Positions 20,262-26,441 are shown, counted from the first letter of the stretch. The stretch: DNA of 64,000 nucleotides from the human T2T-CHM13v2.0 reference genome, Homo sapiens (GCF_009914755.1 NC_060927.1); one strand, 5' to 3'. The notes: generated by a model from the letters alone, not told the origin. A program made the numbers and translations.

Positions 20262-20364
20262 TCTTTTAATTTTAATTTTAGGTTCCGGGATACATGTGCA
20301 GGTTTGTTGTATAGGGAAACTCGTTTCATGGGGGTTTGTTGTGAAGATTATTTCATCAACCAGG
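20262..20364 (-). mobile_element. Older L1PA 3' end, left part (host element split by the palindromic L1 insertion)
   Basis: ttttaggttccgggatacatgtgcaggtttgttg...ttatttcatcaaccagg; continues at ~26313. Confidence 0.8.
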
Positions 20365-22972
20365 TTTTTTTTAAATTTTATTATTATTGTACTTTAAGTT
20401 TTAGGGTACATGTGCACAACGTGCAGGTTTGTTACATATGTATACACGTGCCATGATGGTGTGCTGCACCCATTAACTCGTCATTTAGCGTTAGGTATAT
20501 CTCCGAATGCTATCCCTCCCCCCTCCCCCCACCCCACAACAGTCCCCGGTGTGTGATGTTCCCCTTCCTGTGTCCATGTGTTCTCATTGTTCAATTCCCA
20601 CCTATGAGTGAGAACATGCGGTGTTTGGTTTTTTGTCCTTGCGAAAGTTTGCTGAGAATGATGGTTTCCAGCTTCATCCATATCCCTACAAAGGACATGA
20701 ACTCATCATTTTTTTATGGCTGCATAGTATTCCATGGTGTATATGTGCCACATTTTCTTAACCCAGTCTACCCTTGTTGGACATCTGGGTTGGTTCCAAG
20801 TCTTTGCTATTGTGAATAGTGCCGCAATAAACATACGTGTGCATGTGTCTTTATAGCAGCATGATTTATAATCCTTTGGGTATATACCCAGTAATGGGAT
20901 GGCTGGGTCAAATGGTATTTCTAGTTCTAGATCCCTGAGGAATCACCACACTGACTTCCACAATGGTTGAACTAGTTTACAGTCCCAGCAACAGTTCCTA
21001 TTTCTCCACATCCTCTCCAGCACCTGTTGTTTCCTGACTTTTTAATGATCGCCATTCTAACTGGTGTGAGATGGTATCTCATTGTGGTTTTGATTTGCAT
21101 TTCTCTGATGGCCAGTGATGATGAGCATTTTTTCATGTGTTTTTTGGCTGCATAAATGTCTTCTTTTGAGAAGTGTCTGTTCATATCCTTCGCCCACTTT
21201 TGATGGGGTTGTTTGTTTTTTTCTTGTAAATTTGTTGGAGTTCATTGTAGATTCTGGGTATTAGCCCTTTGTCAGATGAGTAGGTTGCAAAAATTTTCTC
21301 CCATTCTGTAGGTTGCCTGTTCACTCTGATGGTGGTTTCTTCTGCTGTGCAGAAGCTCTTTAGTTTAATTAGATCCCATTTGTCAATTTTGGCTTTTGTT
21401 GCCATAGCTTTTGGTGTTTTAGACATGAAGTCCTTGCCCATGCCTATGTCCTGAATGGTATTGCCTAGGTTTTCTTCTAGGGTTTTTATGGTTTTAGGTC
21501 TAACATGTAAGTCTTTAATCCATCTTGAATTAATTATAAGGTGTATATTATAAGGTGTAATTATAAGGTGTATAATTATATATTAATTATAAGGTGTATA
21601 TTAATTATAAGGTGTAAGGAAGGGATCCAGTTTCAGCTTTCTACATATGGCTAGCCAGTTTTCCCTGCACCATTTATTAAATAGGGAATCCTTTCCCCAT
21701 TGCTTGTTTTTGTCAGGTTTGTCAAAGATCAGATAGTTGTAGATATGCGGCATTATTTCTGAGGGCTCTGTTCTGTTCCATTGGTCTATATCTCTGTTTT
21801 GGTACCAGTACCATGCTGTTTTGGTTACTGTAGCCTTGTAGTATAGTTTGAAGTCAGGTAGCGTGATGGTTCCAGCTTTGTTCTTTTGGCTTAGGATTGA
21901 CTTGGCAATGTGGGCTCTTTTTTGGTTCCATATGAACTTTAAAGTAGTTTTTTCCAATTCTGTGAAGAAATTCATTGGTAGCTTGATGGGGATGGCATTG
22001 AATCTATAAATTACCCTGGGCAGTATGGCCATTTTCACAATATTGAATCTTCCTACCCATGAGCGTGTACTGTTCTTCCATTTGTTTGTATCCTCTTTTA
22101 TTTCATTGAGCAGTGGTTTGTAGTTCTCCTTGAAGAGGTCCTTCACATCCCTTGTAAGTTGGATTCCTAGGTATTTTATTCTCTTTGAAGCAATTGTGAA
22201 TGGGAGTTCACTCATGATTTGACTCTCTGTTTGTCTGTTATTGATGTATAAGAATGCTTGTGATTTTTGCACATTGATTTTGTATCCTGAGACTTTGCTG
22301 AAGTTGCTTATCAGCTTAAGGAGATTTTGGGCTGAGACAATGGGGTTTTCTAGATATACAATCATGTCATCTGCAAACAGGGACAATTTGACTTCCTCTT
22401 TTCCTAATTGAATACCCGTTATTTCCCTCTCCTGCCTGTTTGCCCTGGCCAGAACTTCCAACACTATGTTGAATAGGAGTGGTGAGAGAGGGCATCCCTG
22501 TCTTGTGCCAGTTTTCAAAGGGAATGCTTCCAGTTTTTGTCCATTCAGTATGATATTGGCTGTGGGTTTGTCATAGATAGCTCTTATTATTTTGAGATAC
22601 GTCCCATCAATACCTAATTTATTGAGAGTTTTTAGCATGAAGAGTTCTTGAATTTTGTCAAAGGCCTTTTCTGCATCTTTTGAGATAATCATGTGGTTTC
22701 TGTCTTTGGTTCTGTTTATATGCTGGAGTACGTTTATTGATTTTCGTATGTTGAACCAGCCTTGCATCCCAGGGATGAAGCCGACTTGATCATGGTGGAT
22801 AAGCTTTTTGATGTGCTGCTGGATTCGGTTTGCCAGTATTTTATTGAGGATTTCTGCATTGATGTTCATCAAGGATATTGGTCTAAAATTCTCTTTTTTT
22901 GTTGTGTCTCTGTCAGGCTTTGGTATCAGGATGATGCTGGCCTCATAAAATGAGTTAGGCAGGATTCCCTCT
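20365..22972 (-). mobile_element. L1PA (PA3/PA4-like) 3' 2.6 kb, left palindrome arm, with open RT ORF 21601-23004
   Basis: T-rich tail at 20365, L1PA 3' UTR, ORF2 RT with QGCPLSP and LFADDMIVY; reverse complement of 23404-25986. Confidence 0.95.
21531..21615 (-). repeat. Five-copy ACACCTTATAA micro-array, left arm copy
   Basis: Exact mirror of 24761-24845. Confidence 0.9.
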
Positions 22973-23013
22973 CTTTTTTTTTTTTTTTTTGAAAAGGTCA
23001 ACAAAATTGATAG

Positions 23014-23101
23014 ACCGCTAGGAAGACTAATAAAGAAGAAAAGACAAAGGGGATATCACTGCTAGCAAGACAAATAAAGAAGAAAAGACAAAGGGGATAT
23101 C
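23014..23101 (+). repeat. 44-bp tandem duplication in the palindrome spacer
   Basis: accgctaggaagactaataaagaagaaaagacaaaggggatatc / actgctagcaagacaaataaagaagaaaagacaaaggggatatc, 3 mismatches. Confidence 0.9.
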
Positions 23102-24760: not shown

Positions 24761-24845
24761 ACACCTTATAATTAATATACACCTTATAATTAATATATAA
24801 TTATACACCTTATAATTACACCTTATAATATACACCTTATAATTA
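24761..24845 (+). repeat. Five-copy ACACCTTATAA micro-array that terminates ORF2, right arm copy
   Basis: Motif starts at 24761, 24779, 24805, 24818 and 24832 with AT-palindromic linkers. Confidence 0.9.
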
Positions 24846-26002
24846 ATTCAAGATGGATTAAAGACTTACATGTTAGACCTAAAACCATAAAAACCCTAGA
24901 AGAAAACCTAGGCAATACCATTCAGGACATAGGCATGGGCAAGGACTTCATGTCTAAAACACCAAAAGCTATGGCAACAAAAGCCAAAATTGACAAATGG
25001 GATCTAATTAAACTAAAGAGCTTCTGCACAGCAGAAGAAACCACCATCAGAGTGAACAGGCAACCTACAGAATGGGAGAAAATTTTTGCAACCTACTCAT
25101 CTGACAAAGGGCTAATACCCAGAATCTACAATGAACTCCAACAAATTTACAAGAAAAAAACAAACAACCCCATCAAAAGTGGGCGAAGGATATGAACAGA
25201 CACTTCTCAAAAGAAGACATTTATGCAGCCAAAAAACACATGAAAAAATGCTCATCATCACTGGCCATCAGAGAAATGCAAATCAAAACCACAATGAGAT
25301 ACCATCTCACACCAGTTAGAATGGCGATCATTAAAAAGTCAGGAAACAACAGGTGCTGGAGAGGATGTGGAGAAATAGGAACTGTTGCTGGGACTGTAAA
25401 CTAGTTCAACCATTGTGGAAGTCAGTGTGGTGATTCCTCAGGGATCTAGAACTAGAAATACCATTTGACCCAGCCATCCCATTACTGGGTATATACCCAA
25501 AGGATTATAAATCATGCTGCTATAAAGACACATGCACACGTATGTTTATTGCGGCACTATTCACAATAGCAAAGACTTGGAACCAACCCAGATGTCCAAC
25601 AAGGGTAGACTGGGTTAAGAAAATGTGGCACATATACACCATGGAATACTATGCAGCCATAAAAAAATGATGAGTTCATGTCCTTTGTAGGGATATGGAT
25701 GAAGCTGGAAACCATCATTCTCAGCAAACTTTCGCAAGGACAAAAAACCAAACACCGCATGTTCTCACTCATAGGTGGGAATTGAACAATGAGAACACAT
25801 GGACACAGGAAGGGGAACATCACACACCGGGGACTGTTGTGGGGTGGGGGGAGGGGGGAGGGATAGCATTCGGAGATATACCTAACGCTAAATGACGAGT
25901 TAATGGGTGCAGCACACCATCATGGCACGTGTATACATATGTAACAAACCTGCACGTTGTGCACATGTACCCTAATACTGAAAGTATAATTAAAAAAAAA
26001 AA

Positions 26003-26312
26003 ACAGCTCCTGGAATCATTGATTTTTTGAAGGGGTTTTTGTGTCTGTATTTCCTTCAGTTCTGCTCTGATCTTAGTTATTTCTTGCCTTCTGCTAGCTT
26101 TTGAATGTGTTTGCTCTTGCTTCTCTAGTTCTTTTAATTGTGGCGTTAGGGTGTCAGTTTTAGATCTTTCCTGCTTTCTCTTGTGGGCATTTAGTGCTAT
26201 AAATTTCCCTCTACACACTGCTTTGAATGTGTCCCAGAGATTCTGGTATGCTGTGTCTTTGTTCTCGTTGGTTTCAAAGAACATCTTTATTTCTGCCTTC
26301 ATTTCATTATGT
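26003..26312 (-). mobile_element. L1PA ORF2 fragment (post-endonuclease region), 5'-most piece of the compound insertion
   Basis: Minus [27 protein letters not shown]...KINDSRS; ends at ccaggagctg, whose natural continuation (ttttttgaaa..tcaacaaaattgatagacc) is at ~22985 on the opposite strand. Confidence 0.9.
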
Positions 26313-26441
26313 AATCACCCCGGTATTAAGCCTGGTATCCCTTGGTTATTTTTCCTGATCCTCTCCCTCCTCCCACCTTCCACCCTCTAGTAGGCCCTGT
26401 GTCTTTTATTCCCTTCTACATGTCCATGTGTTCTCATCATC
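26313..26441 (-). mobile_element. Older L1PA 3' end, right part
   Basis: atcaccccggtattaagcctggtatccc...cctgatcctctccctcctcccacc continues the element broken at 20364. Confidence 0.8.

What the first reader, a model, noticed from the sequence alone, without database searches (positions are those of the whole stretch)
20355..26326. One TSD encloses a three-part L1 with two poly(A) tails, unlike ordinary twin priming
Seen: an older L1 3' end is split, with atcaaccaggt (left) and atcaccccggt (right) as a degenerate TSD and a TT/AATA endonuclease-like site on the minus strand. Read on the minus strand the insert is: A (26312-26003, sense), B (26002-22991, inverted, includes a whole 3' end and tail), C (22972-20365, sense, second 3' end and tail). 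A stops at ccaggagctg and B begins at ttttgaaaaggtcaac, which are adjacent in L1 ORF2. Both internal junctions are A/T homopolymers. Established: twin priming gives only inverted-5' plus sense-3' segments with one tail. Inference: either an A-B-polyA-C-polyA tandem whose B segment flipped between the ORF2 T-tract and the poly(A), or re-priming of a T-ended nascent strand on the RNA poly(A) during integration.
Basis: partly seen in the sequence, partly recalled or inferred. Interest (0 to 1): 0.7.

Follow-up and report, generated by a model that had tools for sequence, protein, structure and literature searches.

The report
Self-correcting L1 palindrome with flipping spacer
In an intron of the meiosis gene ZCWPW2, two 2.6-kb copies of an L1 jumping gene face each other and are 99.7% identical, the 0.4-kb piece between them is listed (at low confidence) as flipped in some people, and the copies likely keep overwriting each other like a miniature Y-chromosome palindrome, likely born when one L1 landed backwards inside another.

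Summary
B and C are one 2.6-kb inverted repeat around a 413-bp spacer, with 8 differences in 2,572 bp and 1,615 bp identical. They share 41 substitutions and a private 66-bp insertion. The spacer is a catalogued polymorphic inversion (PMC10150506 Table S1, low confidence). In the other orientation the locus reads as an ordinary 5'-truncated L1 with a second L1 3' part antisense at the ORF2 TTTTTT/GA site. That site holds other antisense inserts, and a second chr3 locus shows nesting (with TSD) then flipping. Differing tails, clustered differences and weak GC bias (17:6 vs 425:422, p=0.03) point to arm-to-arm gene conversion (about 0.85). Origin by nested insertion is only about 0.5, because the inner TSD is missing; templated duplication and same-event re-priming stay open. 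It is not twin priming. Each ingredient is known; an all-L1 autosomal mini-palindrome was not found in my searches. Interest 0.45.

The parts
26328..26437 (-). 5' portion of the older L1 3' end that served as target
   Evidence: contiguous with the right flank in 1,251 genome places
26314..26327 (-). outer TSD, 5' copy, after a TT/AATA endonuclease-type site
26004..26313 (-). segment A: 5'-truncated start of the host L1 (ORF2), ends at the ORF2 T-tract (site x)
   Evidence: maps to L037 2927-3233; 2.3% private changes
25992..26003 (-). T12 junction: native ORF2 T-tract fused to the inverted poly(A) of arm B
23395..26000 (+). arm B: L1 3' 2.6 kb with its own tail
24760..24847 (+). AT-rich minisatellite holding a 66-bp private insertion, copy in arm B
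   Evidence: absent from 22 of 22 other L1 copies
22982..23394 (+). 413-bp spacer (L1 piece S, the direct continuation of A); catalogued polymorphic inversion chr3:28418903-28419453 = window 22903-23453
23014..23101 (+). 44-bp tandem duplication over a roughly 32-bp deletion inside the spacer, 93% identical copies
22974..22990 (-). A17 junction between the inverted site x and the 5' end of arm C; no longer TSD present
20376..22981 (-). arm C: same L1 3' 2.6 kb, inverted relative to B
20401..22015 (-). 1,615-bp tract identical to 24361-25975 (likely recent conversion tract)
21529..21616 (-). the same minisatellite with the 66-bp private insertion, copy in arm C
20365..20400 (-). 3' terminus and tail of C, differing from B's terminus (3 substitutions in 12 bp, different AAT count)
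20355..20368 (-). outer TSD, 3' copy (overlaps the tail)
20270..20354 (-). 3' remainder of the older L1 end

Best explanation
The element is a 2.6-kb L1 inverted repeat around a 413-bp spacer that is catalogued (low confidence) as inverted in some people; its arms are likely kept alike by arm-to-arm gene conversion, and it likely arose when a second L1 inserted backwards into the first at a built-in endonuclease-type site. Steps: (1) shown: a 5'-truncated L1 (A-S-R-polyA, about 3.3 kb) sits in an older L1 end with a 14-bp TSD. (2) inferred: a second, same-period L1 3' piece (R-polyA) was reverse-transcribed antisense into the host's GGTTTTTT/GAAA tract and joined at its 5' end through A-run microhomology, giving A, inverted R, S, R. 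(3) shown in print, low confidence: the spacer occurs in both orientations; inferred: crossover between the arms flips it, CHM13 carries the flipped form, and that makes the apparent three-part A/B/C element. (4) inferred: non-crossover repair between the arms copies changes across, including a 66-bp insertion, but fades at the outer tails and inner edges.
For: Arms: 8 differences in 2,572 bp, against about 70-94 expected had they diverged independently at the private rate of other copies. 41 shared substitutions, 30 seen in none of 22 other L1 copies, plus 4 shared private indels. Differences are uneven: 1,615 bp identical, P about 0.003 for 8 uniform points. Three substitutions in the last 12 bp, P 6e-6 at the body rate. 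Shared private changes are GC-biased, 17 W>S: 6 S>W against 425:422 pooled, Fisher p=0.033; the arms have the most CpG (21-22 vs 10-19) and the highest GC of 24 sequences, as reported for X/Y palindromes (PMC3723533 abstract; PMC8981503 passages). The spacer equals a listed inversion, 16 of 82 alleles in the 41 of 44 samples with reads. Site x takes antisense inserts: 3 of 89 other long-T hits hold an Alu-like or SVA-like tail, one with a visible TSD. A second locus, chr3:89.957-89.965 Mb, has an L1 tail fused at x, the x TSD kept on both sides, and a layout that reads as nesting then flipping between two 5' UTR copies. B's and C's tails fall into two tail types that both occur in the panel.
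Against: No 7-20-bp TSD at the inner junction, only an A/T run, whereas both nested inserts at x that I could read kept about 15 bp. A/S and the arms show no lineage difference at 5 + 26 polymorphic sites, so two independent sources are not shown. 86 of 89 long T-tracts at x are plain expansions, so the homopolymers prove little. GC bias is weak, and the single-copy segment A is also biased (5:0), so it may be regional. The inversion row is 'lowconf' and PAV-only, with 7 of 44 genotypes unflagged. No ape or second human haplotype could be read. The second locus rests on 40 probes of 40-50 bp, five junction stretches and two 276-bp stretches, and its 5' UTR copies are not homogenised (85%).
Confidence: 0.5

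Rival explanations
1. Templated inverted duplication at DNA level: a nascent strand ending in the ORF2 T-tract annealed to the element's own poly(A), copied 2.6 kb backwards and returned at an A5/T6 microhomology; spacer flips and conversion followed.
For: Explains the missing inner TSD, homopolymers at both junctions and the same lineage. Arms identical at birth would favour conversion. One of 89 other loci (L147) has a 26-nt fold-back copy at this very tract. A deletion plus 44-bp duplication lies 23 bp from the junction. Inverted duplications are the commonest inversion class in PMC12350158 (passage).
Against: The copy starts exactly in a poly(A) tail at an endonuclease-type site. B's tail is not a copy of C's. 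The median inverted duplication in PMC12350158 is 284 bp.
Confidence: 0.2
2. One integration event: the T-ended second strand of the new L1, or a nick in it at x, re-primed on the poly(A) of the same or a sister L1 RNA.
For: One outer TSD encloses everything, there is no inner TSD, and all parts look alike in age and lineage. Priming of a top strand on poly(A) is proposed in PMC2837659 (twin-priming variants, dual priming).
Against: In PMC2837659 the poly(T) directly follows the TSD, whereas here 310 bp of sense L1 intervene. The tails differ. The second chr3 locus shows the same junction arising with a TSD from two differently aged copies.
Confidence: 0.15
3. Tandem then flip: C inserted head-to-tail into B's poly(A), then all of B inverted between the ORF2 T-tract and that tail.
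For: Accounts for A17 before C and for the missing inner TSD; B's tail holds a TT/AAAA site.
Against: Needs a 3-kb inversion on a 6-nt homopolymer match. The nested route uses only steps seen elsewhere: antisense insertion at x and spacer flipping.
Confidence: 0.1
4. Late duplication without conversion: the arms are alike only because the duplication is recent, with error-prone synthesis at the junctions.
For: Shared private load (33 in about 2,400) is most of the element's load. Three of the four terminal substitutions are B-only, next to a junction.
Against: The 1,615-bp identical tract, GC and CpG excess, and a C-only change and different tail at the outer end.
Confidence: 0.1
5. Assembly artefact (fold-back read or cross-arm polishing).
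For: Hairpins trouble long reads (own knowledge). A nanopore study reports ZCWPW2 as the gene with most insertion calls (PMC10638045 passage; positions not seen).
Against: Intact TSD and old-L1 continuity on both flanks, distinct tails, 8 resolved arm differences, and an independent assembly-based inversion call on the spacer.
Confidence: 0.02

Closest known systems
Y and X chromosome palindromes with arm-to-arm gene conversion (Hallast 2013, PMC3723533, abstract seen; Jackson 2021, PMC8981503, passages seen)
   Same: Arm identity above 99%, multi-kb identical tracts, GC-leaning shared changes, spacer inversion by crossover.
   Different: Autosomal, arms 2.6 kb rather than tens of kb or more, made only of L1, no gene in the arms. 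The inversion allele looks common (about 20%, low confidence), whereas P6 inversions are rare.
L1 recombination-mediated inversions (Lee 2008, PMC2603318, passages and chr3 supplement rows; HsInv0341 in Aguado 2014, PMC3961182, passages)
   Same: Oppositely oriented L1PA copies bracket an inverted segment; recurrence is reported for such repeats.
   Different: Here the two L1s are nested under one TSD and the spacer is itself L1 and only 0.4 kb. None of Lee's 4 chr3 rows lies near this locus.
Twin priming and its poly(T)/dual-priming variants (Meyer 2010, PMC2837659, abstract, background, passages)
   Same: One TSD, an inverted L1 segment, an inverted poly(A).
   Different: Two full 3' ends, 2.6 kb duplicated, three segments, poly(T) internal rather than next to the TSD.
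Catalogued inversion chr3:28418903-28419453 (Porubsky 2023, PMC10150506 Table S1 row and methods passages)
   Same: It is this spacer.
   Different: The row gives coordinates and genotypes only; no mechanism, origin or conversion seen in the passages read.

Membership tests
twin-primed L1 | single poly(A) tail | tested here: not met
   two 3' ends and tails
twin-primed L1 | inverted 5' part and sense 3' part with only short deletion or duplication at the junction | tested here: not met
   2.6 kb duplicated, three segments
twin-primed L1 | one TSD and endonuclease site | tested here: met
poly(T)/dual-priming L1 (Meyer 2010) | poly(T) directly after the 5' TSD | tested here: not met
   310 bp of sense L1 lie between
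L1-mediated NAHR inversion | inverted L1 copies span both breakpoints | tested here: met
L1-mediated NAHR inversion | both orientations exist | tested here: inconclusive
   listed in PMC10150506 Table S1 with verdict lowconf; no second haplotype read here
L1-mediated NAHR inversion | recurrence on several haplotypes or species | not testable with these tools
   no human panel or ape genomes held
palindrome under arm-to-arm conversion | arm identity above 99% | tested here: met
   99.69%
palindrome under arm-to-arm conversion | GC-biased fixed changes confined to the arms | tested here: inconclusive
   17:6 vs 425:422, p=0.033, but A 5:0 and spacer 1:2
palindrome under arm-to-arm conversion | concerted evolution across species | not testable with these tools
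   no ape orthologs
canonical nested TPRT insertion (second arm) | endonuclease-type site and poly(A) at the 3' junction | tested here: met
   T-tract/GA site fused to tail; site used by other inserts
canonical nested TPRT insertion (second arm) | 7-20-bp TSD of its own | tested here: not met
   only an A/T run at the inner junction; so described as working like nested TPRT, not filed as a canonical one

The most novel reading that the evidence does not exclude
L1 carries its own endonuclease target in ORF2, so L1s repeatedly land backwards inside L1s and spawn miniature autosomal palindromes. This one has evolved for millions of years like a Y palindrome, with GC-biased conversion, a 66-bp scar copied arm to arm and a toggling spacer. 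This may be driven by meiotic transcription of ZCWPW2, whose pre-mRNA would fold into a 2.6-kb hairpin with 1,615 perfect base pairs about 1 kb downstream of the first coding exon.
Probability: 0.25. Interest if true: 0.7.

Novelty: new variant of a known kind. Interest (0 to 1): 0.45.

Why it matters
It shows that an apparently exotic single-event L1 structure can be a later recombination product, a caution for calling integration mechanisms from one reference genome. It offers a 6-kb autosomal palindrome, small enough for one long read, in which conversion rate, tract length, GC bias and inversion recurrence can be measured across pangenome haplotypes and apes. A listed Alu insertion in one arm (PMC12350158 Table 18 row) is a natural marker for whether a 0.35-kb heterology is copied or erased. 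Such short-spacer, near-perfect repeats are also candidate fragile sites and long dsRNA sources in a meiotic gene (mouse ZCWPW2 expression: 10.64898/2026.05.22.727067, passages); no effect on the gene was tested.

Tried and rejected
Spacer hypermutation: the first count gave 6.8%, but it is an alignment artefact of the deletion plus 44-bp duplication; with those columns dropped it is 1.6%. A source element carrying the private changes elsewhere: none among 40 scored candidates. A second copy of the inner junction: 0 exact matches. Long T-tracts at x as a sign of insertion: 86 of 89 are plain expansions. Different subfamilies for host and arms: not seen (low power, 5 sites in A+S). Homogenised arms at the second chr3 locus: no, 85% over 270 bp. 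Folding of 22930-23450 only restates the arm stem. Literature: 10 searches found no description of this locus's origin or conversion; the locus is not among the chr3 rows of Lee 2008. Supplements not seen, which may bear on whether it is described: Porubsky 2022 (Cell version not held; preprint supplements closed), PMC12350158 (table file cut, one file too large), PMC12058530 (unreadable), and PMC10638045 (no ZCWPW2 rows in the one file held).

Full report
Observation. On the minus strand an older L1 3' end is split by a 14-bp TSD (26327-26314 and 20368-20355; 11 of 14 match). The two flanks are contiguous at 1,251 other places in the genome, against 0 for the reversed control. Inside lie A (26313-26004, sense), B (26003-22991, inverted, with a whole 3' end) and C (22973-20365, sense, second 3' end). 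A and the start of B are neighbours across the ORF2 T-tract, here called site x (L037 positions 3233 and 3243).

What was missed. B and C form one inverted repeat: arms 20376-22981 and 23395-26000 with a 413-nt spacer. The arm bodies differ at 8 of 2,572 positions (99.69%), all in the inner 957 bp; 1,615 bp are identical. I compared them with 22 other L1 copies (23 fetched, one dropped for lacking a long match). The arms share 41 substitutions, 30 of them in no other copy, plus a 66-bp AT-rich insertion, a 10-bp deletion and two 1-bp indels. Other copies differ from one another by a median 5.2%. No third copy with these marks turned up among 40 scored candidates; the best is 93-94%.

The spacer flips. 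A repeat like this predicts spacer inversion. Table S1 of PMC10150506 (T2T coordinates) lists chr3:28418903-28419453, which is window 22903-23453, as an inversion. It shows 14 heterozygotes and 1 homozygote among 41 of 44 samples with reads, 16 of 82 alleles. The row's verdict is low confidence, it rests on the assembly caller alone, and only 7 genotypes carry no flag. In the other orientation the locus reads A, inverted R-polyA, T-run, S, R, polyA, TSD. That is an ordinary 3.3-kb 5'-truncated L1 with a 2.6-kb L1 3' piece antisense at x. The three-part look is then simply the CHM13 spacer orientation.

Why the arms are alike. Independent decay at the private rate of other copies would give about 70-94 differences, not 8. 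So the arms were either duplicated late or homogenised. Three results favour homogenisation. The identical tract is too long for uniform scatter (P about 0.003). The termini differ sharply (3 substitutions in 12 bp, P 6e-6 at the body rate, and different tails). Shared private changes lean to GC (17:6 against 425:422, p=0.033; highest CpG and GC of 24 sequences; the insertion region and the last bases were left out). Against: the bias is weak, single-copy A is also 5:0, and junction-near errors of a late duplication could mimic the terminal differences. I put conversion at about 0.85. This is the behaviour reported for sex-chromosome palindromes (PMC3723533 abstract; PMC8981503 passages).

How the second arm arose. 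Site x reads TTTTTT/GA, an endonuclease-type site (own knowledge; motif as in PMC2837659). Of 90 genome hits with 11 or more T there, one is this locus and 89 were read. 86 are plain expansions, two carry an Alu-like and one an SVA-like antisense tail (labels recalled), and one Alu insert shows a TSD of about 15 bp. A stricter pattern found one L1 tail fused at x, at chr3:89.96 Mb. Probes there give L1 5' UTR, a 3' piece with tail, then antisense L1 from x back to its start, then the x TSD and sense L1 from x to the end. That reads as a nested antisense L1 followed by a flip between the two 5' UTR copies, which are 85% alike and of different type. It is an independent case of the same path, read from sparse probes only. 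At our locus the inner junction lacks such a TSD, and host and arms show no lineage difference. So nested insertion gets about 0.5, templated DNA duplication 0.2 (L147 has a 26-nt fold-back at x), same-event re-priming 0.15, tandem plus flip 0.1. The element's 3' end matches the majority of the panel; the label L1PA3/L1PA4 is recalled and comes from no call.

Comparison. It fails the defining tests of twin priming and of the poly(T)/dual-priming class (PMC2837659). It fits L1-mediated inversion (PMC2603318, PMC3961182) and works like a palindrome under conversion; cross-species proof could not be run. The inversion is catalogued. Ten paper searches found no account of its nested origin or homogenised arms; several supplements could not be seen (listed under Tried and rejected).

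Context. The element starts 1,049 bp after the first coding exon of ZCWPW2 (annotation from the task). The pre-mRNA would carry both arms, so a 2.6-kb hairpin is predicted, untested. PMC12350158 Table 18 lists an Alu insertion at window 22243 in arm C whose TSD shows arm B's base at arm difference 22244, so that difference is likely not fixed. PMC10638045 names ZCWPW2 as the gene with most insertion calls (13 unique); their positions were not seen, so a link is only a guess.

Verdict. New variant of a known kind; interest 0.45.

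Noticed in passing
G000:C3:89957550-89965070 (L150-L196): Full-length L1 with an internally deleted L1 (5' UTR to about 520 joined to about 5250) nested antisense at the same ORF2 T-tract, TSD kept, then apparently flipped between the two 5' UTR copies (85% alike). 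Read from sparse probes.
   Followed up: partly
L061, L106, L100: Alu-like (two) and SVA-like (one) tails inserted antisense at the same ORF2 T-tract of other L1s; L061 shows the TSD.
   Followed up: partly
L147 (G000:C23:140633050-140633240): 26-nt fold-back copy of upstream L1 sequence between a T30 and an A run at the same T-tract.
   Followed up: no
window 22243 (chr3:28418243): Polymorphic Alu insertion listed in PMC12350158 Table 18; its TSD carries arm B's base at arm difference 22244.
   Followed up: partly
window 24306-24311 and 25591-25614 (mirrored at 22070-22065 and 20785-20762): Two tight clusters of 3 and 4 private substitutions shared by both arms, like multi-base repair errors copied across.
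   Followed up: no
window 23014-23101: Deletion of about 32 bp overlaid by a 44-bp tandem duplication (93% alike) 23 bp from the inner junction.
   Followed up: partly
window 25989: Arm B is sense to ZCWPW2 and ends with an ATTAAA hexamer before its A run, a possible intronic polyadenylation site.
   Followed up: no
window 8146-10017 and 52744-62968: Older L1 ORF2/3' fragments at 62-89% identity to the element lie in both orientations elsewhere in the window.
   Followed up: no
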